NCBI GenBank assembly: GCA_963555815.3 | Contig: CAUVWX020000001.1 | Location: 988,633-1,052,632 of the forward strand | Direction: 5' to 3' | Source of the DNA: a bacterium | Lineage (GTDB): Bacteria > UBA8248 > JACPRG01 > G963555815 | DNA: 64,000 bases | Shown here: one piece after another, positions 1-34,381 of the stretch | Layout: every line of letters starts with the position of its first letter | Position numbering within the stretch: position 1 is the first letter of the stretch | Notes under the pieces: generated by a model | Database searches by the model: none | Told to the model about the DNA's origin: nothing | The model's input: the letters and a program-made list of their open reading frames with translations, nothing else | Made by a program: the position numbers and the translations under genes

Positions 1-1767
1 CGTTCGGAGGTCGTGGGACAGATCGCCGTGGAGAGGGGACGCCCCCACCTCATCCCCCTGGATAAGCGCGTGGGTCCGGCCATTGGGATTGTGAAAGGGG
101 GGGAGGGAGGCGCAAGAAACGGTGAGATGGCCGTCTTGCACATTACCCATTACCCCAAGGACCGAATCCCCGCCCGGGGCAAGATTGTCCGCGTCATCGG
201 CCCCCCAGATAGCCTCGAGGCCGAGGTCGATATGGTGGCGACTCAATTCGACCTCGCCCAAGAATTTCCAAAGAAGGTTTTTAACGAGGTGTCCCGCTTA
301 GCGGCTCCGGGACCGTCCGAGATTCGATCGCGAGAGGATCTGCGGGGTCTCCTCATGGTGACCATCGACGGGGAGACCGCTTGGGATTTTGACGACGCCG
401 TCTCTCTCGAAAGAATCCCAAAACCTCTGCAGGGGTTTCGGCTTGGGGTCCACATCGCCGACGTCTCTCACTACGTTCAAAAGGGGGGTGCCTTGGACCT
501 CGAGGCGAGGGGTCGGGGGACGAGCGTCTATTTCCCCGGACAAGCCCTCCCCATGCTTCCTCCGCGTCTCAGCGCGGACCTCGCCAGCCTCCTTCCGGAA
601 AAAAACCGCCTCGCCCTGTCGGTCTTCATCGATTATTCCCCCGAAGGAGAGCGCCTGGGGTACCGGTTTTCAGAAAGTGTCGTCCGGGTCCGCCACCGTC
701 TTACCTACGAGGGGGTAGCCCGGTTCCTCGCCGGGAGGCCCCCCAGCGACTTCCCCCGCGACAAAGCCCTCGGCGGTGTCCTGAGGGACATGGCAGACCT
801 GGCGGCTCGCCTCAGGGAGCGACGCATCGCTCAGGGCAGTCTGGATTTTGAGATCCCCCAGGCAGAGGTCCTTGTGGATGAAAAGGGTCGAGTGCAGGGC
901 GTTCGGCGCGCCCCGAGGACTGAGGCCGGGAACATCATCGAGGATTTCATGCTGGCGGCGAACCAGACCGCAGCGGAACACCTGGAGGGATTGAAGATTC
1001 CGGCTTTATACCGAGTCCACGAGCCCCCCGGCCCCAAGGACCTGGAAGAGGCGGAACTCTTCCTCCACAACCTCCGCTATCGCATCCCGGGGCTCAAGTC
1101 GAAACCGTCTGAGGCCATTCGAACCGCCCTTGAGATTGCGAGAGGAAAGCCTGAGGAGCCCCTCGTCCATATGGCCCTCCTCCGGGCGATGAAGCTCGCC
1201 CGCTACGCCGATGAAAATCTTGGCCACTTCGGCCTTCACTTCTCCCACTACACCCACTTCACCTCCCCTATCCGCCGCTATCCGGACCTCGTGGTTCACC
1301 GCCTCCTGCGGCTCTCGGGCCTTGGACAAGGACGAAAAAGCCCTCGACGCCCGCTGGACACCCTTGCCGGAGAAATGGCGATCATCGCCCTGGAGAGTTC
1401 CAAGAGGGAGAGAAACGCCGAAGCGGCCTCGAGGGCCATGGTGGATTATAAACGGGCAAGGTTCATGGAGAAGAAGGTGGGGGAGGTTTTTAAGGGGGCG
1501 GTGAGCGGCGTGGTCTCCTCAGGCTTCTTTGTCTCCCTGGATGACCCCTTTGTGGAGGGTTTTATCCGGGTTCGAAATCTTGAGGATGACCATTATGTCT
1601 TTGACGCGGGGACACAATCTCTCACAGGGCGGCGGGGACAAAAGACCTTTCGGCTGGGAGACCGGGTGACAGTCCGAGTGGCCCGGGTAGACGCCCTGAG
1701 GCGTGAGATCGACTTTGAGCTTTTGAAGAGCCCTGCTGCGTCAGGCGCTCGCCGGAAAGGGGAATAA
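1..1767 (+). CDS. rnr: Ribonuclease R (RNB exoribonuclease with C-terminal S1 domain), 5' end cut by window edge
   Basis: Frame is open from base 1. The track ORF 13-1767 shows RNB-domain motifs (TIDGETAWDFDDAVS, HFGL..YTHFTSPIRRYPDLVVHR) and an S1-like C-terminus (GAVSGVVSSGFFVSL). Confidence 0.9.
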   Translation, partial: RSEVVGQIAVERGRPHLIPLDKRVGPAIGIVKGGEGGARNGEMAVLHITHYPKDRIPARGKIVRVIGPPDSLEAEVDMVATQFDLAQEFPKKVFNEVSRLAAPGPSEIRSREDLRGLLMVTIDGETAWDFDDAVSLERIPKPLQGFRLGVHIADVSHYVQKGGALDLEARGRGTSVYFPGQALPMLPPRLSADLASLLPEKNRLALSVFIDYSPEGERLGYRFSESVVRVRHRLTYEGVARFLAGRPPSDFPRDKALGGVLRDMADLAARLRERRIAQGSLDFEIPQAEVLVDEKGRVQGVRRAPRTEAGNIIEDFMLAANQTAAEHLEGLKIPALYRVHEPPGPKDLEEAELFLHNLRYRIPGLKSKPSEAIRTALEIARGKPEEPLVHMALLRAMKLARYADENLGHFGLHFSHYTHFTSPIRRYPDLVVHRLLRLSGLGQGRKSPRRPLDTLAGEMAIIALESSKRERNAEAASRAMVDYKRARFMEKKVGEVFKGAVSGVVSSGFFVSLDDPFVEGFIRVRNLEDDHYVFDAGTQSLTGRRGQKTFRLGDRVTVRVARVDALRREIDFELLKSPAASGARRKGE

Positions 1768-1974
1768 ATCTCTTCAAGACCCCGTCGGGGAAAACGCGGA
1801 CGGAAGGGGACTTTTCATCCATCTCGCCGGAAAAAGCGCCCCACCTTTCGACGCCCTTCGGGCACGAGGGGGAGATAAAGAGTGGGGCTCACGGCGGGAG
1901 CGTCAATCTCAGATGAGACTCTCCATTGAAAAACCCTCCGGATATCCCTATGTTTTCTAAGGGTGGTGAATGAA

Positions 1975-2439
1975 ATGGCACGAGGACAGAAGTTTATCTG
2001 TATGAATAAGAAGGCCCTCCACGATTACCACGTGGAGGAGTCCATCGAGGCGGGAATCGCCCTGCGGGGGACGGAGGTCAAATCCCTCCGCGCAGGGCGG
2101 GCCCACCTCAAGCACAGCTACGCCGAGCCTGTGGGGGATGAGATCTTCCTCGTCGGCGTCCACATCGCCCCCTATGAAGGGGGAAGCTATAATAACCATG
2201 ATCCGGAGCGCCGGCGAAAGCTTCTCCTCCACCGACACCAGATCAGGCGTCTTGCCGGGAGGGTGACGGAGAAGGGTTTCACCCTCGTTCCATTGAAGAT
2301 GTATTTCAGTCGTGGGCGTGCCAAGGTAGAGATAGCCATCGCCAAGGGGAAGCACACCTACGACAAGCGGGAAACCTTGAAGCGAAAGGAGGCCGAGAGG
2401 GAAGTGGAACGGGCCTTCAAGGAGAGTAGGAGACGCTAG
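1975..2439 (+). CDS. smpB: SsrA-binding protein SmpB
   Basis: Track ORF 1963-2439. The ATG at 1975 gives MARGQKFI.NKKALHDY..IEAGIALRGTEVKSLR, a typical SmpB N-terminus. The gene lies directly upstream of the tmRNA gene. Confidence 0.92.
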   Translation: MARGQKFICMNKKALHDYHVEESIEAGIALRGTEVKSLRAGRAHLKHSYAEPVGDEIFLVGVHIAPYEGGSYNNHDPERRRKLLLHRHQIRRLAGRVTEKGFTLVPLKMYFSRGRAKVEIAIAKGKHTYDKRETLKRKEAEREVERAFKESRRR

Positions 2440-2462
2440 AGCTCTCTTCCTCGGAGATTCAA

Positions 2463-2821
2463 GGGGGCGACCTGGTTTCGACGGGGGTACTGGAAGTCCG
2501 GGCTGCATGCCGAGGTGCCGTTGGCTCGTAAAACAAACGGCAAACTAATAACTGCCGACGCAGAGTTGGCTCTCGCCGCTTAATAAGTGGTGGGCGCCCT
2601 GCTGGTCCGAGCCCGTAGGGCTGGATTAGGGTGTCATAAAATCGGGATAGCCCAAGGGGCTGGGCCTCGGGGCCCTTCGGGTGAAACTAAACCGCAGGAT
2701 AGCCTCTCTCCTATCCCCGCCGGGGGAGCTGAGAGGGGCGAAAGAAAAATCCCGGCTAAGCGTGTAGATGCCCGAGACTGAAGACCTTCGGACGGGGGTT
2801 CGATTCCCCCCGCCTCCACCA
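2463..2821 (+). ncRNA. ssrA: tmRNA (transfer-messenger RNA)
   Basis: 5' GGGGGCGACCTGGTTTCGACGGGGG pairs with 3' ...GGACGGGGGTTCGATTCCCCCCGCCTCCACCA, forming a tRNA-Ala-like acceptor stem with G3:U70 and a T-arm. The internal tag reading frame ends ...GCC GAC GCA GAG TTG GCT CTC GCC GCT TAA TAA (..ADAELALAA). Confidence 0.93.
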
Positions 2822-2829
2822 TTTCTTGA

Positions 2830-2874
2830 CCCCCCCTGGCCCCTCGCTTGAAGTGGGCCACGGGGGGGTTTTTT
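2830..2874 (+). terminator. Rho-independent terminator after ssrA
   Basis: C7 run plus TGGCCC (2830-2842) pairs with GGGCCA-C-G7 (2855-2868) and is followed by T6 (2869-2874). Confidence 0.8.
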
Positions 2875-2957
2875 CAAAAGGTTATTAGTTTTTCGAAAGC
2901 GGGGGAGCCCCCGCTTTCACCTTCCCAAAGGCCTCTGAAACCAACTGCGAAAACGGC

Positions 2958-2986
2958 TTGACAGTGAAAGGATAGGTGCATATACT
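2958..2986 (+). promoter_or_regulatory. Sigma70-like promoter, TTGACA-17 nt-TATACT
   Basis: TTGACA at 2958-2963, an exact 17-nt spacer, and TATACT at 2981-2986. It lies upstream of the DUF3179-like and AhpD-like gene pair. Confidence 0.6.
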
Positions 2987-3257
2987 CTCTTACATGAGGA
3001 GGATCAAAGGATTTAGCAGTAAAGAGGGGCTGAAGAGCCCCGTCCCGACCCACCGGTGACGCATATGGAACGCTTTAAGAAACAAGCTTCTGGACCGGCC
3101 TACGTTGGGTTTGGCCTTCCAAAATGGGCTTGACAGTCGAGGGGCAACAGGATTAACGTTACCGCATACAGTCAACGGTGTCGGGAACGTCTCTGGCAGG
3201 GCTTGGGAACGTGTTTGCCAAGCCGAGATGGGAGAAACTTGTAGAGGAGGGCAACGC

Positions 3258-5129
3258 GTGATTGTCAGACGATACAAGGACGAGGAAGAGAAAAAGAAAA
3301 TCATCGCCAATACGGCCCAGAAGTATAAAAAAGAGTGTGGCTTCTTCGTGACAGACCGCATCCGTACGAATGTTATGTACGGGCTGACCGACGCGAAACG
3401 CGTTTCCGCCAAACAATTCGCCCCCTTGATGAAGGACGACGATCGTGTGGTGGGCATCTCCCATAAAGGGCAATCCGTGGCTTACCCCTACTTCATCACA
3501 GATTACTACCACTATATGAACGATGTGATCGGAGGGGACCCCGTCGTCTTCCAGACCTGAGAGAGGTGCGGGTCTGGCACCTCGTTCAGCGGTCAGCTGA
3601 ACAATAAAAGATTTAATTGGGACCTATCGGGACTTCTCCTGGCCCAGCAGGGAGGGTGGGACTCAGAAACTGAAAGTTCCTGGTGGAGCATTGACGGCCT
3701 TGCCTATGACGGCCCTCTGAAGGGCACGATGCTGGATTACCTCGCCTACGTCCACTGCACTTGGGCGGAGTGGCTGGAGCTCCATCCTGACACCGAGGTC
3801 ATGGACCTTCCCGACGATCCGAAGCATAAAGATCCCCGAGGCGGTCACGCCTCCGAAGAGTACTGGGAGCGGCCGGGGATTGACAAGTTCATGATCGCGG
3901 GACTTGTGTCCGGTGAGTTAGACCGCCAGCTTCCAGAGAACGTCACGTGCATAGGGGTAAACCTCCCTCAGGGTGTCAAGGCATATCCGGTCAGAGACAC
4001 TAAGCTTGAGGGGGGCCTCACCCATGACAAGATAGGCGATGTGCCCCTGCTCATCATCTCTGGGCCTGCGACGGACAGCTACTTTACAGGGGTTTTCGAC
4101 CGAAGGGTCGACGGCAAGGTGCTAGAGTTCAAGCCCCAGAAGGGCACCGGGGTGGTCTGGAACATGGTGGACAATGAGACGGGGACCGTGTGGAACCCCG
4201 AAGGGCTTGCTATTGACGGGAAGCTCAAGGGCAAGCAGCTCACTCCGGTCCACTACGGTTTCTGTCGGTGGCATTCGTGGATCTACACCCACCCCACAAC
4301 CGAGATTTACAGGACCAAGCGGACAGAGGCCCCGGACATCGAAGAGGGCGTCTTCGCGCAGCTCCTGAAAGGGCTTCACGACGCGAAGTACAAGGTGAAG
4401 GTCAAGCGCGAGATCATCAACGACGCGCGTCTCCTTCAGACCGACCGGGGGCTAATCCTGGACATCAACGGCGACCGCTTACTCCTCCACCACTTCACCA
4501 ATGAGACGGCTTGCCGAGACTACTGCGCCCTCACGCCCCATATACTCCGTGCCGGGTGGTACGTCCTCCAATCTGACCCCCCGGATCAGTTCACCGATAT
4601 CGCCACGAATATTACGAGGCTCCCGGCCGAGGAGATCAACTGGTCGAAGCTCCTCGAGGACGAAAAGTTCGTCCAGGCCTTCCAAAGTGCCGCTTCCAAG
4701 GAGACGGGGCCGGACTACCCCGGATTCAGCGATCTCGTCGGGGCTATCAACCAGGGCGGGTACGACTTCTTCCCCGGGGCTCCTGAGCTCCACTTTGAGA
4801 TCCCGTACCTGTTGCCCTGGGGGACCTATATTGGCCTGCGCCCCGGGGAGGAAAATATGTTCTTGGCCACCATTAATGCTTCGGACCACTTTGAAATCCA
4901 CCGGTGGAAGACAGAAGAGGGGGCGGAAGAGTACAAGAACTACGCCAAGCACGCCTTCCGTGTCGGACGCTATGTCTTCCAACACGTCCCCTTGGCCGCC
5001 TACCAAATCCAGATGTTCCGGATGGGGGATAAGCCCGACGACAAGGTGATGTGGTCGGATATTTTGGAGGACGAGGACTTCAAGAACATTGTCCGCTCCG
5101 TCGTCGAGGGTGCACCAGCTAAGGCTTAA
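3258..5129 (+). CDS. Tandem DUF3179-like domain protein with in-frame TGA (3558-3560) in a UxxC motif; candidate selenoprotein
   Basis: Track ORFs 3105-3560 and 3729-5129 share a frame, and 3561-3728 has no stop. The junction reads GGDPVVFQT-TGA-ERCGSGTSFS, matching the DUF3179 core ..VTYCPLCgtg.vF as I recall it. The GTG at 3258 follows GGAGG at 3246-3250; the start is uncertain (3105-3258). Confidence 0.75.
3563..3602 (+). promoter_or_regulatory. Candidate bacterial SECIS (two adjacent hairpins downstream of TGA 3558)
   Basis: Hairpin 3563-3583 is GAGGTGC/GCACCTC with loop GGGTCTG. Hairpin 3584-3602 is GTTCAGC/GCTGAAC with loop GGTCA. Both loops contain GGTC, as in the E. coli fdhF SECIS apical loop. 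Confidence 0.55.
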
Positions 5130-5373
5130 TGACGAGGAGGGTTTCGCGAAGGACGTGATTCGCTCCGTTGTGGAGGAGTGAAAGAAGACGAGATTTCTCT
5201 TCTGAGGGTCTTCGGCCGCAGAGGTTATTTTCGGCGGCTGGAGGCCCTCAAGTGTTTCAGGGGCCGGATGGCCGGGGCCTGTTTAGCCTGCGAGGCAGGG
5301 GACCCCGGCGTCGGCGCGGTCGGCGTGACGGGACAGACGTCAGGATGCGCGGGACCATCTAGGGAGAAAAGAA

Positions 5374-6021
5374 ATGGCCTGGATTAAAACCATTGGGGAG
5401 TCTGAGGCCACTGGCGAGCTCAAGGCGCATTATGACAGGGCGCGCAAGACGCGGGGGTTTGTGCCGAACATTCAGAAGATCAACAGCCTCAAGCCTGAGC
5501 TCTTGAGTCGATACTACCACTTCTCCCGCGCGGTGACCTTCGGAGGCAGCAGCCTGGGGCGAAAGCGGGAGGAGATGATAGCGGTCACCGTCTCAGCGCT
5601 CATCAAATGCAGGTATTGAACGGTCTCTCACGCGGAGGTCCTCCGCAAAGTCATCTGGAACGACGCCAGGCTGGCGGCCAAGGCCAGCGGCGCAAAGGAG
5701 GGAATGAGTCAAAGCGACGCCAATAAGCTGGTCCTGGCGCTCAAGGAGGATTATCGGAATGCGGGCCTGGCCCCTCCGGACGTCGCCATGCTGGAGTACG
5801 CAGAGAAGATCACCTTCCATCCCACCGACATTACAGAAACGGACATAAAAAACCTGCGGACCCACGGATTCAACGATCAGCAGATCCTGGAGATCGCGGC
5901 GGTTGCGTCCCTCTTCAATTATCTGACTCGGATGGCCAACGCCCTGGGGGTGGAGCCGGACAAGGATGATTTCACCGATGACCCGCAGATCCTGGCCAAA
6001 TTGTCTGAGGGGCTGAAATAG
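5374..6021 (+). CDS. AhpD/carboxymuconolactone decarboxylase-family peroxidase-related protein with in-frame TGA (5617-5619) in a CxxU motif; candidate selenoprotein
   Basis: Track ORFs 5374-5619 and 5704-6021 share a frame with no stop in between. The junction SALIKCRY-TGA-TVSHAEV fits the AhpD-like signature CxxCxxxH, with the second Cys replaced. The N-terminus MAWIKTI..EATGELKAHYD resembles the peroxidase-related CMD subfamily. GGGAG lies 8 nt upstream of the ATG. Confidence 0.8.
5632..5646 (+). promoter_or_regulatory. Candidate bacterial SECIS hairpin
   Basis: GCGGAG-GTC-CTCCGC (or a 5-bp stem with loop GGTCC). The stem starts 13 nt after TGA 5617-5619. Confidence 0.55.
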
Positions 6022-6130
6022 TTTTGTGTGGGACAGCGTGTGAGTGCCTGGCGATACGGGAGGGATGAAAATTCCACAAAAACAGCTCTAATGTCTTTCT
6101 AGCTTTCCTGTTTCATAGACGGCACGCCCT

Positions 6131-7924
6131 TTACATCGCGCACTCGCCTTCGCCGCGCTCGAGCTTGTAAGGTTCGTCCTTCCCCCAGTCCTTGTAAAGG
6201 TCCAGGGCGTCCCCTTCCGGGGGCTCCAGCACCTTGGTGATGTCTTTGAGCACTGCTTCGAACCCCTTCGGTCCTACGCGGTCGACAAAATCGTTGAAGG
6301 TCTCGCCCGAATTCCGGTTCTCCTGATAGTAGATGAGTATCTTCCGGAGGGCTTCGGGCGTGCGCTTGGCCGGCACACGAGAGCGAATTCGCTTGCCGAT
6401 CCGCGTGGCTCCATCTGCATAGGAGCCTCCCAGGAAGACCTCGTATGCGGGCACCTGATTACCGTTGCCGGCGCCCTTAACGGCCGCCCCGTGGAAGCCG
6501 ATGTTGGCCAGATGGTGCTGGCCGCAGCTGTTGGGGCATCCGCTCATCTTGACGTGGAGGTCTTGGATGAACGGGTCCTTGATGATCTCGTCCTCTAGGA
6601 GCGATTTTCGCAGCGCATGGGCGAGTCCCATGGAGGAGGTAATCCCCAACTTGCAGCTGTCGGTGCCGGGGCAGGAGGTGACGTCGGTGATGGTATGGAC
6701 CTCGGTCTCCGCCAGGCCGATGTCCTCCAACTCCCTCCAGAGGGGGTAGAGTGTCTCCTCGCGCACCCACCGGAAGATGAGGTTTTGTTGATGGGTGGTG
6801 CGGGCTCGGCCCCCAGCATACTCCCTGGCGATCCGGGCCAGGGAGAAGAACTGTTCCGTCCGAATGTCCCCAAGGGGGACCTTCACGAAGACGGCGTGAT
6901 AGCCCTTCTGCCTTTGGGGTAGGACGTTGGTGTCCCGCCAGTGGTGAAAGGCCCGGTTGTTCCCGTTGGGCTGTTCGATATGGGCGGGGACGCCGGGGGC
7001 GCTGGCGGACTCGTCCTCCAGAAAGAGATAGGGCTCCGGGTCGATGGGCTCCTGGGCCCAGGGTTGCTGCAGTTCCTCGTCTGTCATTTCCCGGAAGGCG
7101 TCGATTCCGATGCGGTCGATGAGGAACTTGATCCGGGCCTTCATCTTGTTCTTTCGGAGCTCGTCCGAGCGGTGGAAGATGCGGATCACCGCCTCGCTGA
7201 CCTTCAGGTAGTCGGAGATCGGCACGAAGTCGTAGAGCGTATAGGCAACCCTCGGGAGGATGGAGAGACCGCCCCCGGTGACGATCCGGAAACCCCTGGA
7301 CTGCTGACCGTTTTCACTTCGAGTCTGCGCCAGAAATCCCAGATCGTGGATCCCGGTGATGGCACAGTCGGTCGGGCAGCCAGAGAAGGCCACCTTGAAC
7401 TTTCTCGGCAGGGTCTGCGTAAAGGGGTGCCGGAGGAAGTAGCGGGCGAAGGCCCCGACGTATGGCGTCACGTCGAAGATCTCGCCTTGGCAGACCCCGG
7501 CCATGGGGCAGCTCGTGACGTTGCGGACAGTGTTCCCGCAGGCCTCCCGGGTGCTGAGCCCCGCCTCCCCGATAACGCGCATGACTTCGGGCGTGTTTTC
7601 AAGCGGGATGAAGTGGAGCTGGATATTCTCCCGGGTAGTGATGTGCCCCTTCCCAAGGGGGACATAGTCCCTGACGACACGTCCCAGGGCCTCCAGCTGC
7701 TCCGCCGTCAAACCCCCAAAGGGGATCTTGATCCGGAACATCTGGGCATCGGCCTGCCTTTGGCCGTAGACCCCTTGGCAGAGTCGAAAGGCGGTGAACT
7801 TCCCCGGGTCCCACTCCCCCTGACGAAAACGCGTGGCCTCGGTCTCGAAGTCGTCGATCTCTTCGGGGAGGACCGGGAGAACGCCTTTCTGCCCCTCGAA
7901 GTTTTTGACGTGCTTGAATTCCAT
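6131..7924 (-). CDS. sir: Assimilatory sulfite reductase (ferredoxin-type, siroheme/4Fe-4S NirA/Sir family)
   Basis: The track ORF 6131-8116 was trimmed to the ATG at 7924 (MEFKHVKNFEG) to avoid overlap with cysH. It shows nitrite/sulfite reductase repeats and Cys-cluster motifs (TSCPGTDSCKLG, SGCPNSCGQHH) and lies immediately downstream of cysH. Confidence 0.88.
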   Translation of the reverse strand: MEFKHVKNFEGQKGVLPVLPEEIDDFETEATRFRQGEWDPGKFTAFRLCQGVYGQRQADAQMFRIKIPFGGLTAEQLEALGRVVRDYVPLGKGHITTRENIQLHFIPLENTPEVMRVIGEAGLSTREACGNTVRNVTSCPMAGVCQGEIFDVTPYVGAFARYFLRHPFTQTLPRKFKVAFSGCPTDCAITGIHDLGFLAQTRSENGQQSRGFRIVTGGGLSILPRVAYTLYDFVPISDYLKVSEAVIRIFHRSDELRKNKMKARIKFLIDRIGIDAFREMTDEELQQPWAQEPIDPEPYLFLEDESASAPGVPAHIEQPNGNNRAFHHWRDTNVLPQRQKGYHAVFVKVPLGDIRTEQFFSLARIAREYAGGRARTTHQQNLIFRWVREETLYPLWRELEDIGLAETEVHTITDVTSCPGTDSCKLGITSSMGLAHALRKSLLEDEIIKDPFIQDLHVKMSGCPNSCGQHHLANIGFHGAAVKGAGNGNQVPAYEVFLGGSYADGATRIGKRIRSRVPAKRTPEALRKILIYYQENRNSGETFNDFVDRVGPKGFEAVLKDITKVLEPPEGDALDLYKDWGKDEPYKLERGEGECAM

Positions 7925-7958
7925 CCTCAAGTCTTCCTTTGGGAAACGGCTATCCAGC

Positions 7959-8663
7959 TCATCTGTGAAGTCCACATTCGGTCTTCGCAAACCCGCGCCA
8001 GCGGCCCGCACGAGCGTCCTCTCCGAGCTTGACAGGCGAGGTGCAGTGGGTGCATCCGATACTGGGATAGTTCTGGTCGTGGAGGGAGTTGTAGGGGACG
8101 TCGTGGGCCTGGACATAGTCCCACACGTCCGCTGAGCTCCATCGGGCCAGCGGGTTCACCTTGACGAGCTCGAACCTTTGGTCCCACTCCACGATCCCGA
8201 TATTGGCCCGACTTGGGGCCTGGTCGCGACGGATCCCGGTAATCCAGGCTTCGAGGCCGGAGAGGGCCTGCCGAAGGGGCAGGACCTTTCTCAAGTGGCA
8301 GCAGCGGTCCGGGTCGTGCCTATAAAGCTCGGGTCCATGTTCGATGGCTTGAGCCTCGGGCGAGAGCGAGGAGCGATAGGTCACTGGCCGGACGCCGTAT
8401 TTCTCCACGATCCGGTCCCGGAGCTCGTAGGTCTCAGGGAACAGAAATTCGGTGTCCAGGTAAAACACCCTGAGGTCAGGCTCGATCTGAACGGCCATAT
8501 CCACTAGAGCCATCCCCTCGGCCCCAAAACCGGTGGCCAGGGCGATCTGGGGGTGAAACTCCCCTAGGGCCCAAGCCAGTACGGCCTGAGGACCCTTTTC
8601 TTCGAACTCACGCCCTAACTCTGCGACCAACTCCGGCGATAGCTTTTTACTGGTGTGATTCAT
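7959..8663 (-). CDS. cysH: APS/PAPS reductase (Fe-S type CysH; CC..CxxC plus C-terminal ECGLH)
   Basis: 234-aa ORF with the PP-loop family fold, DPDRCCHLRKV, SIGCTHCT and a C-terminal KTECGLHR motif. Confidence 0.9.
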   Translation of the reverse strand: MNHTSKKLSPELVAELGREFEEKGPQAVLAWALGEFHPQIALATGFGAEGMALVDMAVQIEPDLRVFYLDTEFLFPETYELRDRIVEKYGVRPVTYRSSLSPEAQAIEHGPELYRHDPDRCCHLRKVLPLRQALSGLEAWITGIRRDQAPSRANIGIVEWDQRFELVKVNPLARWSSADVWDYVQAHDVPYNSLHDQNYPSIGCTHCTSPVKLGEDARAGRWRGFAKTECGLHR

Positions 8664-8790
8664 GGATGGCCTCGCAAAGCTGGGTGATACCGTAAATGGC
8701 GATTGAGTTTTGAAGGTCTCGTCTCATCCGGATTTTTCAAACACTCCGCGAAAGACTCCCCCCGCACATAAAGATGCGGGGAGAAGTATG

Positions 8791-8901
8791 TTAACTAGTT
8801 GTTTTTAAAGGAAAAAACGAACGGGGTGGTCCTTTTCAGGACCCGCTACAGATATAGCCTAGATGTCCGTGAAGAGAAGAATCGTGGGGGGAGCCCCCGT
8901 A
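8791..8901 (-). promoter_or_regulatory. Conserved 111-nt 5'-leader element, copy A (candidate cis-regulatory RNA upstream of cysH)
   Basis: 100 of 111 nt are identical to 9880-9990 in the same orientation relative to the downstream gene. The RNA sense contains GGACA..GGGUCCUGAAAAGGACC, where two GGAC segments compete for one GUCC, followed by a U6 tract. Confidence 0.5.
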
Positions 8902-8970
8902 ACTGAGAGGCAAATTCTTCGAATATGCTGAGTAGATAACCATCATTCCCTTCCTCAGTCTGAATAACCT

Positions 8971-8999
8971 ACCTTAACTTCGAGGCAGAACCCTGTCAA
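8971..8999 (-). promoter_or_regulatory. Promoter of the cysH-sir leader (TTGACA-17-TAAGGT)
   Basis: On the minus strand, TTGACA is at 8999-8994 and TAAGGT at 8976-8971. The 19-nt block GAACCCTGTCAAGCAAAAA is identical in copy B. Confidence 0.5.
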
Positions 9000-9061
9000 G
9001 CAAAAAAATCAAACAATTCGCCTCAAAAGGGCCGAAAATTCTTTAGGGCATCCCTCGTCAC

Positions 9062-9826
9062 TTAGAGGGCCATTCTTAGGCCTGAGAGCAAGAGGACTCC
9101 AGCCAAGATTGCCCGAAGAGCCCTGATGGGGACCCTTGAAGCCAGGCGAGCGCCCAAAAGGACGCCCGGGATCGATCCCACGAGGATCTGGGCCGCGAGG
9201 GTGACGTCCACGGTCCCCAGGGAGAAATGGCCCATCCCAGCCAGTCCGAGAAGCAGGACCGCGTGGGCGATGTCTGTCCCCACGACCTCCCTGACGGTGA
9301 GCGAGGAGCTGACCAGAAGGAGGGCCACGATGATTGTCCCCGAGCCCACCGAAGTCACTGTGACCAGGAATCCCACGGCAGCGCCCGTCACAATCAAGGC
9401 GCGATTCGAGAGGAGAAGATCCTTCTTGCGCCGGATAAAGTCCGGGGCCTTCCTGCCAAGAAAGATTAAGAAGGCGATCAGGATGAGCGTAAAGCCCAAG
9501 GCGTGGCGGACGATCTCATCCAATCGGGCCCCGTTACTCCCTTTGAGGACGGCGAGAAAGAGGATCCCGACCGCCGCTCCCGGCAGGCTCCCCATCGCCA
9601 GTCGCTTCACCATGTTGAAATTGATGTTCGCCTGGCGATAGTGTTGGAACGCCCCAAAGACCTTCGTTACAAATCCGTACAAGAGGTCTGTCCCCACGGC
9701 CACGACGGGGCGCACGCCCATCAGGATCAAAAGGGGCGTCATCAGGGCGCCGCCCCCCATTCCCGTGAGCCCCACTAATATCCCAACACCGAAGCCCGCG
9801 AGGGCGATATAAAGGTCAAACTCCAT
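9062..9826 (-). CDS. TauE/SafE family sulfite/organosulfonate exporter-like membrane protein
   Basis: The track ORF 9062-9859 was trimmed to the ATG at 9826 (MEFDLYIALAGFGVGILVGLTGMGGGALMTP), which is preceded by GGAG. It is a polytopic membrane protein with the Gly-rich TauE-type motif. Confidence 0.82.
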   Translation of the reverse strand: MEFDLYIALAGFGVGILVGLTGMGGGALMTPLLILMGVRPVVAVGTDLLYGFVTKVFGAFQHYRQANINFNMVKRLAMGSLPGAAVGILFLAVLKGSNGARLDEIVRHALGFTLILIAFLIFLGRKAPDFIRRKKDLLLSNRALIVTGAAVGFLVTVTSVGSGTIIVALLLVSSSLTVREVVGTDIAHAVLLLGLAGMGHFSLGTVDVTLAAQILVGSIPGVLLGARLASRVPIRALRAILAGVLLLSGLRMAL

Positions 9827-9879
9827 CCAAACACTCCACGAAGAATTCTCGCCGCACAAAAAAGTGGCGAAAAATTCAG

Positions 9880-9990
9880 TTAACTACTTGTTTTTAAAGG
9901 AAAAAATGAACGAGGTGGTCCTTTTCAGGACCCGCTACAGATACAGCCCAGGTGTCCGTAAAGGGAGGAATCGTGGGGAGAACCCCCGTA
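9880..9990 (-). promoter_or_regulatory. Conserved 111-nt 5'-leader element, copy B (upstream of the TauE-like gene)
   Basis: Paralogous to 8791-8901 at 90% identity. The flanking leader sequence is only about 40% identical but has the same length. Confidence 0.5.
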
Positions 9991-10059
9991 GGTAAGCGGT
10001 AAATCTATTTTGTATCTCAAATCATTAGTCATAGTTCGTTCCCTTTTAGATTTCTATAC

Positions 10060-10088
10060 AGGGTAGGCGCCAAGGCGAACCCTGTCAA
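10060..10088 (-). promoter_or_regulatory. Promoter of the TauE-like gene leader (TTGACA-17-TACCCT)
   Basis: On the minus strand, TTGACA is at 10088-10083 and TACCCT at 10065-10060. It sits at a position homologous to the copy A promoter. Confidence 0.45.
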
Positions 10089-10146
10089 GCAAAAACCCAA
10101 AGGCTTTCCTGGGAGATGAGGATCCCTCGGCGATACCGCGGGAGGG

Positions 10147-11130
10147 CTAAGGCGAAGACATGCGCCAGAGGTGGACCGTGCCGTTCTCTGAGGCTGAGGC
10201 GATGAAGTGGCCATCAGGCGAAAAGGCAATCGAGTGGACCCAGCCCCCATGCCCCTCAAAGAGCTTCACTTCCAGCCCGGTGGACCTATCCCAAACGCGG
10301 ACCGTCTCGTCCACTGACCCAGAGGCCAGTCGTTTGCCATCGGGTGAGAAGGCCACGGAGGAGATAAGATTTTCATGCCCGTGAAAGATTCCCGCATCCT
10401 TCGTAAGGAGTCCCACTTCCTCTGTGTTGATCATGTGTATAACGGTGACCTGATCGGACGAAGAGGCCAGGAGTTTGCCGTCGGACGAAAACGAGACGGA
10501 AAAGATTCGCCATCCATGGTTCGTCATTTTCATCATTTGCAGCTTTGATGAGACGTCCCAGATGCGGACGCTGTTGTCAAATGACCCAGAGGCCAGGAGT
10601 TTGCCATCGGGTGAAAAGACAACAGAACGGACCTGGCGAGTATGTCCCTCGAGACGTGCTATTTCCTTCCCTGTGGACACATCCCAGAGGCGGATAGTGT
10701 TGTCAGCTGACCCAGAGGCCAGAAGACGGCCATCAGGTGAGAAAGCGACGGAGTTGACCGACTTTCCGTGCCCCAGCAGTCTCTTTATTTCTTGCCCTGA
10801 GGACACATCCCAGAGGCGGATAGTGTTGTCCCATGACCCTGTGGCCAGGACGCGGCCGTCGGGCGAGAAGGAGACGGCACCGACCATCATCTGATGGCCA
10901 TCAAGTTCTCTTAGCTCCTTCCCTGAGGAGACCTCCCAGAGGCGAACGGTTGTGTCACTAGACCCTGAGGCGACGAGGCGACTGTCAGGCGAAAAGGTGA
11001 CTGCGTGGACTGAGCCCTCGTGCCCATTGAGGACCTGGGCATCTTCATCTCCAGCGAAGGCGAGAGACGCCGCGAGCAGGACAGGAAAAATGAAAATCAA
11101 GGCCTGAAGGGGCCACCGACGCGTGGGCAT
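10147..11130 (-). CDS. Exported WD40-repeat beta-propeller protein
   Basis: 327 aa with seven units of the type GH...V.SVAFSPDG..LASGS.D.T.RLWD. The N-terminus MPTRRWPLQALIFIFPVLLAASLAFA looks like a signal peptide. GAGGAG lies upstream of the ATG. Confidence 0.88.
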   Translation of the reverse strand: MPTRRWPLQALIFIFPVLLAASLAFAGDEDAQVLNGHEGSVHAVTFSPDSRLVASGSSDTTVRLWEVSSGKELRELDGHQMMVGAVSFSPDGRVLATGSWDNTIRLWDVSSGQEIKRLLGHGKSVNSVAFSPDGRLLASGSADNTIRLWDVSTGKEIARLEGHTRQVRSVVFSPDGKLLASGSFDNSVRIWDVSSKLQMMKMTNHGWRIFSVSFSSDGKLLASSSDQVTVIHMINTEEVGLLTKDAGIFHGHENLISSVAFSPDGKRLASGSVDETVRVWDRSTGLEVKLFEGHGGWVHSIAFSPDGHFIASASENGTVHLWRMSSP

Positions 11131-11273
11131 TTTAGTCTCCTCTAATTTCTATATCAGAAGGCTTCCCGCCTGGATTCCAGCTTCGAGTGAATCACAGTGC
11201 AAATTGTAACCCAAGGTTGACCGTGGGGGCAAACCCGATGGGTTATCTACTGCCTTGGACCATCAGAAGGCCC

Positions 11274-12125
11274 CTACGGGGAAACCGTCCACAGGCGAAT
11301 GGAGCTGTCACCCGTTCCTCTAGCGAAGTGACGGCCATCTGGCGAGGAGGCGGACGAGTCGATCCAATCTACGCCCCCCTCGGGTCTCTCCGCCGGTTCC
11401 CCCGTTGCGACCTCCCAGAGATGGATGATGATGATATGACTCCCCTCCCCCGAGGCGAGGAGACGGCCGTCGGGCGAGAAGGTGACGGCGTTGACCCCGT
11501 GTCTATGCCCCCCCATGCTTCTTAATTCTCTCCCTGTGGACACATCCCAGAGGCGGGCGGTCTTGTCCTCTGACCCAGAGGCCAGGAGACGGCCATCGGG
11601 AGAAAAAGAGACGGAGAAGACGGCCTTCCTGTGCCCGCTCAGAAGTCCAATGTGTCTCCCGGTTGGGACCTCCCAGAGGCGTATCGTCTTGTCCCTTGAC
11701 CCCGAGGCAAGGAGGCGACCGTCAGGAGAGAAGGAGAGGGAGTAGATCCAGTCTCCATGGCCCTCGAGGTTCCCCAACCCTTTCCCTGAGGACACGTCCC
11801 AGAGACGAACGGAGCTGTCCTTTGACCCTGAGGCGAGGAGGCGACCGTTGGGCGAAAACCGAGTGGAGTAAACCCAGTCGCTATGCCCCTCCAGGCTTCT
11901 CAATTCTTTCCCTGAGGACACATCCCAGAGACGAACGGAACCATCCGTTGACCCTGAGGCGAGAAGGCGACCGTCGGGAGAGAAGGAGAGGGAGAGGACC
12001 GGGCCCTCATGCCCTTTCAGGATCCGGACCTCCTCCTCCGACTCCGCGGGAAAGGCAGAGGGTCTCGCCAGAAGGATGAGAACGAGGATAATCAAAATTC
12101 GAAGAGGCCACCGACGTGCGCGCAT
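11274..12125 (-). CDS. Exported WD40-repeat beta-propeller protein (paralog)
   Basis: The track ORF 11274-12179 was trimmed to the ATG at 12125 (MRARRWPLRILIILVLILLARPSAFPA), which is preceded by GGAGGAGGG. The WD40 units resemble those of 10147-11130. Confidence 0.85.
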   Translation of the reverse strand: MRARRWPLRILIILVLILLARPSAFPAESEEEVRILKGHEGPVLSLSFSPDGRLLASGSTDGSVRLWDVSSGKELRSLEGHSDWVYSTRFSPNGRLLASGSKDSSVRLWDVSSGKGLGNLEGHGDWIYSLSFSPDGRLLASGSRDKTIRLWEVPTGRHIGLLSGHRKAVFSVSFSPDGRLLASGSEDKTARLWDVSTGRELRSMGGHRHGVNAVTFSPDGRLLASGEGSHIIIIHLWEVATGEPAERPEGGVDWIDSSASSPDGRHFARGTGDSSIRLWTVSP

Positions 12126-12286
12126 CTCACCCTCCTCCGTTTTCATTAGGCTTGGGGAGTTCCCTCGTGATATGGCCACTGGACAAATCGTAACATAAAT
12201 CGTAGCACATCATGGCGGTCCCGGCGACCCGGCGGGCGTCCACGACTATCTTGAACCAGCGCATCACCCCGAGTATCCTTGATCCC

Positions 12287-13093
12287 ATGCGCCTTGTCTT
12301 TTCCCTTCTATGCTGCTTATTTGCAGGTCCTGCGCTTGCCCAGGACCTCCCCATCTTCGACGCCCACATCCACTACAATCGGTCCGCCTGGGAAAGTTTG
12401 AGCCCTGAGACCGTCCTCTTCATCCTGAACCGGGCAGGTGTCGACCGAGCTCTCGTCTCGAGCACCCCCGACGACGGGACCCTTCTCCTTCACGAAACGG
12501 CCCCCGGACGCATCGTCCCCTTCCTCCGTCCCTACCGCTCCGACGCGGACGTCGCGGCCTGGACGAGAGATCCGTCCGTTCTGGACTACGTGGAAGAAAG
12601 GCTCGAGCGGGGGATCTACCGGGGAATCGGCGAATTCCACCTGGGGCCGGGAGACGCGGCCTCGCCCGTCGTCGTTGGGATCCACCGCATGGCGGCCCGC
12701 CAAGGGCTCTTTCTCCACGCCCACACTGACGACGTGGCCGTTGAGGAACTTCTTTAACTGAAGCCGGAGGTCCCCATCCTCTGGGCCCACGCTGGGATGA
12801 GCGCCTCCGCTGACACGGTTGGACGACTCCTGGAGCGCTACCAAACCCTCTGGGTCGAGCTCTCCCTTCGCTTTGATGTGGCCCCGGGTGGAACCCTCGA
12901 TCCGGCCTGGCGCTCTCTCTTCCTTCGGTTCCCGGACCGCTTCATGGTGGGGACCGACACCTGGGTCAACGCTCAGTGGCAGAGGCTTCCGGGGATCATC
13001 GGTCGTTTCCGGGTTTGGCTTCGCCAGCTTTCCCCTGACGTGGCCAAGCAAATCGCCTCCGAAAACGCCGAACGTCTCTTTGGAGGACAGTGA
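12287..13093 (+). pseudogene. Amidohydrolase-2 (TIM-barrel metal hydrolase) family gene interrupted by in-frame TAA at 12755-12757
   Basis: Track ORFs 12212-12757 and 12797-13093 share a frame. The junction reads HAHTDDVAVEELL-TAA-LKPEVPILWAHAGM. The N-terminal motif is IFDAHIHY, and a signal-like N-terminus MRLVFSLLCCLFAGPALA starts at the ATG at 12287. Confidence 0.7.
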
Positions 13094-13206
13094 GGCGGAT
13101 CTTCAGGGAGTTTGTGTGCGCCGCTTGGATTTCGCGGTCTTGTAACCTGAAGAGAAGTCTGTGAGAATCCAATGTGTGGTTTTCTCTCAAATGAGGAAAA
13201 AGAAAG

Positions 13207-14511
13207 GTGAAAAAAGAGACCTCTCGGGCTAAAGAGGTTCGCCGAAAGGCCCGTGAATACCTCCTGGGGATGATGACGTACTACGAGGAGCCCCTGGTCA
13301 TTGAGCGAGGGCAGGGGGCGACGGTGGTCGATATCGAGGGCCGGGAGTACCTCGACTTCTTCGCCGGGATCGTCACCGTGGGCCTCGGGCACTGTCATCA
13401 GGCCGTGACGGAGCGGACGGCCGAGCAGGCGAGGACCCTTCAGCACGCCTCGACGCTTTATCTGACGGAGCCCCTGGTCGATCTGGGAGAGAGACTGGCC
13501 GAGATCACGCCGGGGCGCCTGAAGAAAAGCTTCTTCACCAGCAGCGGCACCGAGGCCAACGAGACCGCCGTCCTCCTCGCCCGAAACCACACCGGGAGAA
13601 ATGAAATTCTGGCCCTTCGCCAAGGCTACACGGGCCGCTCCTCCCTCGCCATGGGTCTGGCGGGCCAGTCCGACTGGCGCCTTCCGGGGTCGGATGTCGG
13701 GGGGATCGTCCACGCGCCCGGCCCTTACTGCTACCGTTGCCCCTATGAGAAGACCTACCCGAGCTGCGACCTGGTCTGCGCCCGGGACCTCGAGGATGTC
13801 ATCCAGACCTCCACCTCCGGGAAGATCGCGGCCTTCATCGCCGAGCCCATCCAGGGGCTGGGGGGATTCATCACTCCCCCCAAGGAGTATTTCCAGATCG
13901 CCGTCGAGATCGTCCGAAAGTACGGAGGGATTTTTATCTGCGATGAGGTCCAAACAGGCTTTGGACGAACGGGCACCAAGATGTTCGGCATCGAGCACTA
14001 CGGGGTCGAGCCTGAGATTATGACCTTCGCCAAGTCCCTGGCCAACGGGACCCCCATCGGTGCCACCATCGCCGTCCCTGAAGTGGCCGACAGCCTAAAA
14101 GGTTTTACCATCTCCACCTTCGGCGGAAACGCGGTGTCAATGGCGGCGGCCGGGGCCACCCTGGACGTCATCATCGGGGAAAATCTGGTCCAGAACGCCC
14201 AGGAGATTGGGGTTTATTTCAGGGAGCGCCTGGAGGGGCTGAAGGAAAAGCACCCCCTCATCGGGGACGTTCGCGGGATGGGTCTCATCCAGGCCATCGA
14301 GCTCGTCGAGGAGGGAAAGAGGCCGGCCCCGGAGGCGACCCACAGACTTTTTGAGGAGACAAAAAAGAGAGGGCTTCTTATCGGCAGGGGGGGGATCTAC
14401 CGAAACGTCGTCCGCTTCACCCCTCCCCTCAATATCCATAAGGCCGACGTGGACCAGGCGGTCCAAATCCTGGACGCTTCCCTAGACACTGTCCAGACCC
14501 AACAGAAATGA
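13207..14511 (+). CDS. Class-III (omega) pyridoxal-phosphate aminotransferase
   Basis: 434 aa with class-III aminotransferase motifs (FFTSSGTEANE, FIAEPIQGLGG, DEVQTGFGRTG, TFAKSLANG). Confidence 0.88.
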   Translation: MKKETSRAKEVRRKAREYLLGMMTYYEEPLVIERGQGATVVDIEGREYLDFFAGIVTVGLGHCHQAVTERTAEQARTLQHASTLYLTEPLVDLGERLAEITPGRLKKSFFTSSGTEANETAVLLARNHTGRNEILALRQGYTGRSSLAMGLAGQSDWRLPGSDVGGIVHAPGPYCYRCPYEKTYPSCDLVCARDLEDVIQTSTSGKIAAFIAEPIQGLGGFITPPKEYFQIAVEIVRKYGGIFICDEVQTGFGRTGTKMFGIEHYGVEPEIMTFAKSLANGTPIGATIAVPEVADSLKGFTISTFGGNAVSMAAAGATLDVIIGENLVQNAQEIGVYFRERLEGLKEKHPLIGDVRGMGLIQAIELVEEGKRPAPEATHRLFEETKKRGLLIGRGGIYRNVVRFTPPLNIHKADVDQAVQILDASLDTVQTQQK

Positions 14512-14551
14512 CAGGCCTCCCGCCCTTTTCCCCGCGGGCGACCTGGCCGCA

Positions 14552-16520
<1,969 letters not shown>

Positions 16521-16623
16521 ACCGGAGATAAAGATAGCATAAACCCAAAAAAGTGACAAGAGGCGAGGTGTCAAAACAACAAAAGCAAGAGGTTTGCCCC
16601 TTCGATTCGGCGGTGGACACACT

Positions 16624-30976: not shown

Positions 30977-30983
30977 CGTTGAC

Positions 30984-33888: not shown

Positions 33889-33928
33889 ACCGAGACGCTC
33901 GATCCGTTCAACCCAAAGGAGGCAGCAA

Positions 33929-34348: not shown

Positions 34349-34381
34349 GAAGGACCTAGACTACATAATCAGGAGGAATCC

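What the first reader, a model, noticed from the sequence alone, without database searches (positions are those of the whole stretch)
5374..6021. AhpD/CMD-family peroxidase-related gene with in-frame UGA in CxxU (Cys-x-x-Sec-x-x-x-His)
ORFs 5374-5619 and 5704-6021 share a frame, and 5620-5703 has no stop. The junction SALIKCRY-[TGA]-TVSHAEVL reproduces the AhpD-like catalytic signature C-x-x-C-x-x-x-H with the second Cys replaced by the TGA codon. A 6-bp hairpin GCGGAG-GUC-CUCCGC starts 13 nt after the UGA, so a GGUC-containing loop sits about 20 nt from the U. As I recall, AhpD-like proteins have been reported among bacterial selenoprotein families, so this one is probably a mis-split known type rather than a novelty. 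It also strengthens the case that the organism decodes UGA as Sec.
Basis: partly seen in the sequence, partly recalled or inferred. Interest (0 to 1): 0.65.

Follow-up and report, generated by a model that had tools for sequence, protein, structure and literature searches.

The report
Mis-split AhpD-like selenoprotein gene (CxxU)
The two short reading frames at 5374-6021 are one gene for a small antioxidant-type redox enzyme whose internal TGA "stop" is almost certainly read as selenocysteine; this protein family is already a documented bacterial selenoprotein family, so the find is real but ordinary.

Summary
ORFs 5374-5619 and 5704-6021 form one 215-codon frame interrupted only by TGA at 5617-5619. 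The read-through product passes the curated cutoff of TIGR01926 (peroxidase-related enzyme, AhpD-like; 123.6 vs 81.8 bits). The TGA aligns with the near-invariant second Cys of the active site. The window has Glu67-x11-Cys79-x-Tyr81-[TGA]82-x3-His86, the same spacing as the proton relay of solved AhpD-like proteins. Of 19 related genomic loci, 17 carry TGA at exactly this codon and 2 carry TGC; two further relatives also carry TGC. Every TGA form has a hairpin about 12-16 nt downstream (window 5632-5646, GCGGAG-GUC-CUCCGC). This hairpin beats 96-99.9% of synonymous recodings and shows compensatory base-pair changes, and the Cys-codon forms lack a comparably selected structure. A relative with about 94% nucleotide identity keeps the TGA and has no substitutions in the 84 nt after it. 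TGA also ends 12 of 28 genes in the window, so the genetic code is standard. AhpD-like/TIGR01926 CxxU is listed among known prokaryotic selenoprotein families. The untested point is the Sec machinery: no selA/B/C/D lies in the 64 kb window. The adjacent DUF3179 gene also carries a conserved TGA with downstream hairpins.

The parts
5361..5367 (+). Putative ribosome-binding site (AGGGAGA), 6-7 nt before the ATG
   Evidence: Read directly from the sequence; not tested.
5374..6021 (+). Single coding sequence of 215 residues (AhpD-like, TIGR01926), with Sec at residue 82 and a TAG stop at 6019-6021
   Evidence: One frame with a single internal TGA. TIGR01926 123.6 bits vs cutoff 81.8; PF02627 40.1 bits. 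Full-length homologs align across the TGA.
5572..5574 (+). Glu67 codon (GAG), the proton-relay Glu 12 residues before Cys79
   Evidence: Spacing E-x11-C-x2-U-x3-H is identical to Glu118/Cys130/Cys133/His137 of M. tuberculosis AhpD and Glu36/Cys48/Cys51/His55 of PA0269 (PMC3141380). Conserved in all 19 loci.
5608..5610 (+). Cys79 codon (TGC), first residue of the CxxU redox motif (presumed resolving Cys)
   Evidence: invariant TG[CT] in all 18 TGA-form sequences.
5617..5619 (+). In-frame TGA, predicted selenocysteine codon (residue 82)
   Evidence: Aligns with a Cys conserved in at least 90% of homologs. TGA in 17 of 19 related loci and TGC in the rest. Conserved in the ~94%-identical relative L003.
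5629..5631 (+). His86 codon (CAC), the His of CxxUxxxH
   Evidence: Invariant CAC in alignment A3; His of the AhpD proton relay.
5632..5646 (+). bSECIS-type hairpin GCGGAG-GUC-CUCCGC: 6-bp stem, 3-nt loop, with G22/U23 counted from the U of UGA
   Evidence: Predicted in the MFE fold. More stable than 98.8% of synonymous recodings. An equivalent hairpin is present in all 17 other TGA forms: 90% of cells paired, 2 pairs with compensatory changes, 0/500 shuffles reach the covariation score. No selected hairpin at this position in Cys forms L006, L018 and L001.
5620..5703 (+). Stretch between the TGA and the next ATG; it would be non-coding under a two-gene reading, but here it codes residues 83-110 and contains the SECIS
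   Evidence: Zero differences from L003 over 84 nt, against 14/243 and 21/315 differences in the flanking coding parts. It encodes the conserved TVSHAEVLR helix.

Best explanation
5374-6021 is one gene for a 215-residue AhpD-like thiol/selenol oxidoreductase (TIGR01926 'peroxidase-related enzyme', CMD/AhpD superfamily). During translation, the UGA at 5617-5619 is decoded as selenocysteine. The hairpin at 5632-5646, 12 nt downstream, acts as a bacterial SECIS that recruits SelB-GTP-Sec-tRNA(Sec) to the ribosome paused at the UGA. Sec82 takes the place of the second Cys of the CxxC active site, within the Glu67/Cys79/Tyr81/Sec82/His86 proton-relay arrangement. The selenolate attacks a peroxide or an oxidised partner such as a peroxiredoxin-, AhpC- or OsmC-type protein. 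A Cys79-Sec82 selenenylsulfide then forms and is re-reduced by a cellular dithiol donor. What is shown: the gene structure, family membership, the alignment of TGA with Cys, conservation of the TGA across 17 other genomes, and selection on the downstream RNA hairpin. What is inferred: actual Sec insertion, SelB binding, the substrate, and the reductant.
For: The single frame and motif are. Family: TIGR01926 123.6 bits (cutoff 81.8) and PF02627 40.1 bits. The closest solved structures, 6k40 (DR1765 AhpD-like), 2oyo, 3c1l, 2pfx and 2prr, align C-x-Y-C-A-V-S-H onto C-R-Y-[TGA]-T-V-S-H. Cys is at least 90% conserved at the TGA column. 17 of 19 genome loci have TGA and 2 have TGC at the codon; L001 and L002 also have TGC. 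All five TGA relatives tested pass the TIGR01926 cutoff. Hairpin: it is present at the same offset in all 18 TGA forms. The fraction of synonymous recodings that reach the observed stability is 0.001-0.038 in TGA forms and 0.06-0.38 in Cys forms. 90.3% of cells are paired, with compensatory CG<->GC (8:7) and AU<->GC (8:7) changes, and 0/500 shuffles reach the covariation score. The close relative L003 keeps the TGA and has 0 differences in 5620-5703. The code is standard: 12 of 28 annotated genes in the window end in TGA. A second known-family selenoprotein candidate (DUF3179) lies next door, with a conserved TGA and strong hairpins. Literature: AhpD-like CxxU selenoproteins in PMC1088965 (27 sequences), PMC2398784 (299 'AhpD-like 1' sequences vs 902 Cys homologs) and the PMC13188914 table 'AhpD-like protein / TIGR01926 / CxxU'. 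The proton-relay residues are described in PMC3141380. The DR1765 knockout is H2O2-sensitive and the CxxC cysteines are needed for full complementation (PMC8945050 citing Zhao et al. 2020).
Against: No selA, selB, selD or tRNA-Sec is present in the 64 kb window or in the flanks of the related loci (tRNA scan), and the rest of the genome could not be searched. The window's stem is only 6 bp with a 3-nt loop, shorter than many described bSECIS elements. The 64-nt region as a whole is not more stable than dinucleotide shuffles (z = -0.70). No Rfam SECIS model matched. No experimental evidence of selenium incorporation exists for this protein. The substrate and reductant are unknown, and no conserved gene neighbour points to a partner.
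Confidence: 0.9

Rival explanations
1. The gene is a pseudogene: an AhpD-like gene inactivated by a Cys (TGC/TGT) to TGA nonsense mutation, yielding only a truncated 81-residue peptide.
For: A single-base change TGC/TGT->TGA would produce this. Public gene callers treat it as two fragments. No sel genes are seen in the window.
Against: The same TGA at the same codon occurs in 17 other genomes spanning SAR324, Myxococcota, Bradymonadia, 'Rickettsiales', Deltaproteobacteria and unclassified MAGs. Each has intact downstream frames and a co-occurring, covarying hairpin. The downstream part is conserved with L003, including 0 changes in the 84 nt after the TGA.
Confidence: 0.03
2. Two separate small genes: translation terminates at the UGA and re-initiates independently at ATG 5704, which is preceded by an SD-like AAGGAGG.
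For: AAGGAGG lies just upstream of ATG 5704. Gene callers-aa and 105-aa ORFs.
Against: The SD-like motif ends only 2 nt before the ATG, and it encodes K-E-G inside a lineage-specific insertion. Relatives without the insertion have no such ATG, yet they keep the same continuous frame. Neither fragment alone has a Pfam hit on record. The two catalytic helices, including the His of CxxUxxxH, would be cut apart and residues 83-110 would be untranslated, although they are the most conserved stretch.
Confidence: 0.03
3. The UGA is read through as a standard amino acid (Trp, Cys or Gly) through an altered genetic code or near-cognate suppression, not as Sec.
For: Codes 4 and 25 reassign UGA in some bacteria. 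Sec machinery was not observed directly.
Against: TGA terminates 12 of 28 confidently annotated genes in the window at the expected C-termini. The position is a redox-active Cys in homologs, which is the classic Sec/Cys pair. The dedicated downstream hairpin is selected only in TGA forms.
Confidence: 0.03

Closest known systems
AhpD-like selenoprotein family (TIGR01926 / COG2128, CxxU), first described from the Sargasso Sea and GOS metagenomes
   Same: It passes the TIGR01926 cutoff. It has the same CxxU motif with Sec at the second Cys position, a similar length of about 190-215 aa, and a downstream stem-loop. The family is listed as a known prokaryotic selenoprotein family (PMC1088965, PMC2398784, PMC13188914).
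   Different: It carries a ~20-residue insertion (about residues 94-113) after the active-site helix, shared only with its close relative L003. The host is an unclassified lineage whose ThrS is at most 71% identical to named (Nitrospinota) MAG proteins. It is not recognised as a selenoprotein in the public gene calls.
DR1765, the AhpD-like protein of Deinococcus radiodurans (PDB 6k40), and its structural-genomics relatives 2oyo, 3c1l, 2pfx, 2prr
   Same: These are the best solved-structure matches (87-74 bits). The alignment covers both halves, and the active site C-V/L-Y-C-A-V-S-H falls on C-R-Y-U-T-V-S-H. The DR1765 knockout is H2O2-sensitive and its CxxC cysteines matter for complementation.
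   Different: They have Cys, not Sec, at the second position and lack the insertion. Sequence identity is low (local alignments only).
Mycobacterium tuberculosis AhpD (TIGR00777) and P. aeruginosa PA0269
   Same: The proton-relay spacing Glu-x11-Cys-x2-Cys-x3-His is the same; PA0269 also has Tyr before the second Cys, as here (PMC3141380). A similar catalytic chemistry is expected.
   Different: The window protein does not belong to the canonical AhpD equivalog (TIGR00777 16.7 bits vs cutoff 191.95). The topology and position of the catalytic helices differ between subfamilies. No ahpC partner gene lies nearby.
NF041238 AhpD_rel_CFYUT, alkylhydroperoxidase-related (seleno)protein
   Same: It is a related AhpD-type domain with Sec in a C-x-Y-U-T context. 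Several of the relatives found here even carry the literal CFYUT motif.
   Different: The window protein scores 62 bits against a cutoff of 175 and matches only positions 151-339 of a 357-position model. The tested relatives also fail this cutoff. It is not a member.
Escherichia coli fdhF SECIS (the archetypal bacterial SECIS)
   Same: A hairpin lies immediately downstream of the UGA inside the coding sequence, with G-U in the apical loop about 22-24 nt from the U of UGA and a GGUC loop context (fdhF details are from my memory of the Bock-laboratory literature, not from a tool).
   Different: The window's stem is much shorter (6 bp; 8-9 bp in most relatives), with a 3-nt loop and no obvious bulged U. 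SelB binding was not tested. No Rfam SECIS model matches.

Membership tests
TIGR01926 peroxidase-related enzyme (AhpD-like 1 / COG2128) | Whole-protein HMM score above the curated cutoff | tested here: met
   123.6 bits vs 81.8, in two stretches because of a ~20-aa insertion. Five TGA-bearing relatives score 101-134.5 bits.
TIGR01926 peroxidase-related enzyme (AhpD-like 1 / COG2128) | Active-site signature Glu-x11-Cys-x-x-Cys/Sec-x-x-x-His on the helix-turn-helix catalytic motif | tested here: met
   Glu67, Cys79, Tyr81, [TGA]82 and His86, with spacing identical to that given in PMC3141380.
TIGR01926 peroxidase-related enzyme (AhpD-like 1 / COG2128) | All-helical AhpD/CMD fold | not tested
   Only sequence matches to solved AhpD-like structures were obtained. 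No structure prediction was run.
TIGR01926 peroxidase-related enzyme (AhpD-like 1 / COG2128) | Peroxidase or disulfide/selenenylsulfide reductase activity | not testable with these tools
   The only functional data are for Cys homologs: the DR1765 knockout phenotype and weak PA0269 H2O2 reduction.
Bacterial selenoprotein (Sec-decoded UGA) | In-frame UGA aligned with Cys in homologs | tested here: met
   Cys is at least 90% conserved at the column. TGC in L001, L002, L006 and L018; TGA in 17 loci.
Bacterial selenoprotein (Sec-decoded UGA) | SECIS stem-loop immediately downstream of the UGA, conserved as structure | tested here: met
   Hairpin at 5632-5646. All 18 TGA forms have it at the same offset, it beats 96-99.9% of synonymous recodings, and it covaries. 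No curated Rfam SECIS model matches.
Bacterial selenoprotein (Sec-decoded UGA) | Genome encodes selA, selB, selC (tRNA-Sec) and selD | not testable with these tools
   None is in the 64 kb window. The source is a 2.15-Mb contig that cannot be scanned here. Indirect support comes from a second TGA-containing gene of a known selenoprotein family next door.
Bacterial selenoprotein (Sec-decoded UGA) | Selenium demonstrated in the protein | not testable with these tools
   Experimental.
NF041238 AhpD_rel_CFYUT (seleno)protein | HMM score above the curated cutoff over the full 357-position model | tested here: not met
   62 bits vs 175, covering only model positions 151-339.
Canonical AhpD (TIGR00777) | HMM score above the curated cutoff | tested here: not met
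   16.7 bits vs 191.95.

The most novel reading that the evidence does not exclude
The two adjacent same-strand selenoprotein genes, DUF3179 (T-U-E-R-C, TGA at 3558) and AhpD-like (C-R-Y-U, TGA at 5617), may form a dedicated selenium-dependent redox pair. In this scheme one protein re-reduces the other, in a deep-branching Nitrospinota-related lineage. The pair sits beside the divergently oriented assimilatory sulfite reductase/CysH/TauE genes. That would be a previously undescribed selenoprotein module.
Probability: 0.1. Interest if true: 0.4.

Novelty: new member of a known kind. Interest (0 to 1): 0.15.

Why it matters
The main value is for annotation. The public gene calls on the source contig (ENA ERZ28763718 ctg124758) and on several other contigs split this gene into 81-aa and 105-aa fragments with no domain hit on record. 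The neighbouring DUF3179 gene is split into 100-aa and 466-aa pieces. Merging the fragments restores two redox proteins and marks this poorly classified, Nitrospinota-related organism as a likely selenium user. The comparative set assembled here (18 TGA forms and 4 Cys forms) also gives a clean, compact example of a coding-region SECIS hairpin maintained by compensatory changes, including amino-acid changes on both arms. That set could help train SECIS detectors. It does not change what is known about the family.

Tried and rejected
(1) Rfam: the gathering scan of the whole window and a permissive E<=10 scan of 3500-5750 found no SECIS or tRNA-Sec family. This is uninformative rather than negative, because bacterial SECIS elements are poorly covered by curated models.
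(2) Whole-region folding against dinucleotide shuffles gave z = -0.70. This is the wrong null for a short hairpin inside GC-rich coding sequence, so I replaced it with the synonymous-recoding test.
(3) DNA for P0031, a database protein ending in ...RCHY at the Sec position and followed by a second ORF, was unavailable.
(4) A look-up of the NirA-like ORF to find the source contig failed, probably because of a different start codon. ThrS and the 105-aa fragment succeeded.
(5) The tRNA-Sec scan of the 19 related loci found nothing.
(6) A search for a conserved neighbouring gene across 21 loci found only a fumarylacetoacetate-hydrolase-like ORF in 4 loci and no consistent partner.
(7) I considered using the last large protein search to find this organism's SelD or SelB. 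I rejected it because only the top 120 hits are listed, and a heterologous query would not surface this genome's copy.
(8) Membership in NF041238 (CFYUT) and in canonical AhpD TIGR00777 was tested and rejected.

Full report
**Observation.**
The window sequence shows ATG at 5374 and an in-frame TGA at 5617-5619. The frame continues without another stop to TAG at 6019-6021. The translation around the stop is ...SALIKCRY-[TGA]-TVSHAEVLRK.... The hairpin GCGGAG-GUC-CUCCGC lies at 5632-5646, and its first base is the 13th nt after the UGA. A TGA flanked by open frame on both sides is common in this 59.6% GC window: about 90 such sites passed a simple filter. The case has to rest on homology and comparative data.

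**What the protein is.**
With the stop read as Cys, the 215-residue product hits PF02627 (CMD, 40.1 bits, cutoff 23). It passes the curated cutoff of TIGR01926 'peroxidase-related enzyme' (123.6 vs 81.8 bits). It fails NF041238 AhpD_rel_CFYUT (62 vs 175) and canonical AhpD TIGR00777 (16.7 vs 191.95). The closest solved structures are these:
- 6k40, the AhpD-like protein DR1765 of Deinococcus radiodurans
- the structural-genomics 'uncharacterized peroxidase-related proteins' 2oyo, 3c1l, 2pfx and 2prr

Their alignments cover both halves of the window protein and put their C-x-Y-C-A-V-S-H onto C-R-Y-[TGA]-T-V-S-H. The window has Glu67-x11-Cys79-x-Tyr81-[TGA]82-x3-His86. This is the spacing of the proton relay described for M. 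tuberculosis AhpD (Glu118/Cys130/His132/Cys133/His137) and for PA0269 (Glu36/Cys48/Tyr50/Cys51/His55) in PMC3141380. The window protein has a ~20-residue insertion after the catalytic helix, which is why the HMM matches in two stretches.

**The TGA sits on a conserved Cys, and many relatives also use TGA.**
Among 20 database homologs, the aligned column is Cys in at least 90%. The closest full-length homolog, P0001 (51% identity), reads K-C-K-Y-C-T-V-A-H with TGC. P0004 reads H-C-D-Y-C-T-V-S-H with TGC. P0031 ends at ...RCHY and is followed by a second ORF, which is the same split.

A scan of one genome per species returned 19 loci. Seventeen have TGA at precisely this codon and two have TGC. 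The hosts are labelled SAR324, Myxococcota, Bradymonadia, 'Rickettsiales', Deltaproteobacteria and unclassified MAGs. All five TGA relatives I tested pass the TIGR01926 cutoff, and none passes NF041238.

**The downstream RNA.**
All 18 TGA-form sequences, the window included, fold into a hairpin. The stem begins 12-16 nt after the UGA and has a 3-nt G/U-rich apical loop. Because the hairpin lies in coding sequence, I compared each sequence with 1000 synonymous recodings of the same peptide:
- In the TGA forms, the observed local stability is reached by only 0.1-3.8% of recodings (window 1.2%).
- In the four Cys-codon forms, it is reached by 6-38% of recodings.

On the ungapped alignment of the 18 sequences, an 8-bp helix is paired in 90.3% of cells. 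Two pairs alternate by compensatory changes (CG/GC 8:7 and AU/GC 8:7). None of 500 shuffles reaches the observed covariation score, and all slid registers do worse. The window, L003 and L010 use a register shifted by one nucleotide. The whole 64-nt region is not unusually stable against dinucleotide shuffles (z = -0.70), and Rfam has no matching SECIS model. Neither result weighs against a short, local, coding-embedded hairpin.

**A close relative.**
L003 (CBDFMI010000004.1, an unclassified MAG) is syntenic with window positions 1-16032 at about 94% nucleotide identity. It keeps the TGA. The 84 nt between the TGA and the next ATG show zero differences, while the coding parts on either side show 14/243 and 21/315 differences. 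That is the reverse of what a non-coding spacer between two genes would show. It fits a stretch constrained both as protein and as RNA.

**Genetic code and machinery.**
Twelve of 28 confidently annotated genes in the window end in TGA, so UGA is a normal stop here. No tRNA-Sec, selA, selB or selD is in the window or in the related loci (tRNA scan only). The source contig was identified as ENA ERZ28763718 ctg124758, 2.15 Mb. The tools cannot scan the rest of it, so this criterion remains untested.

Indirect support comes from the gene immediately upstream (about 3375-5129, + strand). Its points are these:
- It matches DUF3179 (PF11376, 121.6 bits) across its own in-frame TGA at 3558-3560, in a T-[TGA]-E-R-C context.
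- That TGA is followed by two strong hairpins with GGUC-containing loops (z = -4.2).
- The TGA and hairpins are conserved in L003.
- DUF3179 (UxxC/T) is also a listed selenoprotein family.

**Mechanism (inferred).**
SelB bound to the 5632-5646 hairpin delivers Sec-tRNA(Sec) to the UGA. Sec82 replaces the second Cys of the CxxC redox centre, whose reactivity in AhpD-type proteins is set by the Glu/His/water relay. Sec82 probably cycles between a selenolate and a Cys79-Sec82 selenenylsulfide. In doing so it would reduce a peroxide or an oxidised peroxiredoxin- or OsmC-type partner. In the Cys homolog DR1765, deletion causes H2O2 sensitivity and the CxxC cysteines are needed for full complementation. 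The substrate and reductant are unknown, and no conserved neighbouring gene was found across 21 loci.

**Comparison with what is known, and novelty.**
AhpD-like proteins with CxxU were reported as selenoproteins from the Sargasso Sea (27 sequences, COG2128; PMC1088965). They were also reported from the GOS data (299 'AhpD-like 1' selenoproteins against 902 Cys homologs; PMC2398784). A 2026 review lists 'AhpD-like protein / TIGR01926 / CxxU' among known families (PMC13188914). The window gene meets the tested membership criteria and is therefore a new member of a known kind. Three things are specific to it:
- a lineage-specific insertion after the catalytic helix
- its host, whose ThrS is at most 71% identical to named Nitrospinota MAG proteins
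- public gene calls that split it into 81-aa and 105-aa fragments without any recorded domain

**Verdict.**
Confidence that this is a Sec-decoded AhpD-like gene is about 0.9. Interest is low (0.15), because the find is real but already explained by a known family.

Noticed in passing
window 3375-5129 (+), TGA at 3558-3560; hairpins at 3563-3583 and 3584-3602: The adjacent upstream gene is a DUF3179 protein (PF11376, 121.6 bits spanning the stop) with an in-frame TGA in a T-U-E-R-C context. The TGA is followed by two strong hairpins with GGUC-containing loops (z = -4.2). TGA and hairpins are conserved in L003. Public gene calls split the gene into 100 and 466 aa. DUF3179 UxxC/T is a listed selenoprotein family (PMC13188914). 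The true start codon was not settled.
   Followed up: partly
window 5686-5706: An SD-like AAGGAGG ends 2 nt before ATG 5704, inside the reading frame, where it encodes K-E-G of a lineage-specific insertion. It probably explains why gene callers start a second ORF there.
   Followed up: partly
window 5653-5712 (residues ~94-113): A ~20-residue insertion (IWNDARLAAKASGAKEGMSQ...) directly follows the catalytic helix. It is shared only with L003 and is absent from P0001, L004-L011 and the PDB homologs. Other relatives (L012-L021) have a different, longer insertion at the same place.
   Followed up: no
whole window; source ENA ERZ28763718 ctg124758 (~714138-778137 of 2,152,400 bp): The organism is unclassified. 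Its ThrS is 100% identical to a protein on this 2.15-Mb contig. The best named relatives are Nitrospinota MAGs (63-71%), followed by Tectomicrobia, Poribacteria and KSB3 at about 62-63%.
   Followed up: partly
L002 5902-6360: A Cys-codon (TGC) copy of the gene is 5'-truncated and lies beside an IS481-family transposase. It still has a 5-bp hairpin (CUGAG-UUC-CUCAG) at the SECIS position, possibly a relic of a Sec-to-Cys conversion.
   Followed up: partly
window 6131-9859 (-): An assimilatory sulfur cluster is oriented divergently from the selenoprotein pair: a NirA/sulfite-reductase-like hemoprotein, CysH (PAPS/APS reductase) and a TauE/SafE sulfite exporter-family permease. The mechanical 661-aa ORF of the reductase overlaps cysH, and public calls use shorter starts of 597 or 626 aa.
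   Followed up: no
window 16434-16525 (-) and 30872-30990 (+): A TPP riboswitch lies upstream of thiC (14552-16303, -). A Moco/tungsten-cofactor riboswitch lies upstream of moaA. The mechanical TTG start of the moaA ORF (30921) lies inside the riboswitch and the MoaA HMM match begins at residue 74, so the real start is probably downstream.
   Followed up: no
window 13-2821 (+): RNase R (the ORF begins at base 13; the RNase R model is matched only from position 141, so the N-terminus probably lies beyond the window start) is followed by a tmRNA gene (2463-2821, tag ADAELALAA). The same tmRNA is present in L003.
   Followed up: no
window 19902-21104 (-), 32249-37447 (+), 62669-63232 (-): There are two cysteine desulfurases: NifS-type, and IscS within an Rrf2/IscR-IscS-...-HscA cluster. 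There is also a NifU-domain protein. Both desulfurases show sub-threshold similarity to selenocysteine lyase SclA (112 and 133 bits vs cutoff 525). That similarity is generic for the fold and is not evidence of a selenium role.
   Followed up: no
window 10147-12179 (-): Two tandem beta-propeller ORFs show weak hits to delta-60 repeat and TolB-like models, plus a faint hit to hydrazine synthase beta. All hits are far below the cutoffs.
   Followed up: no
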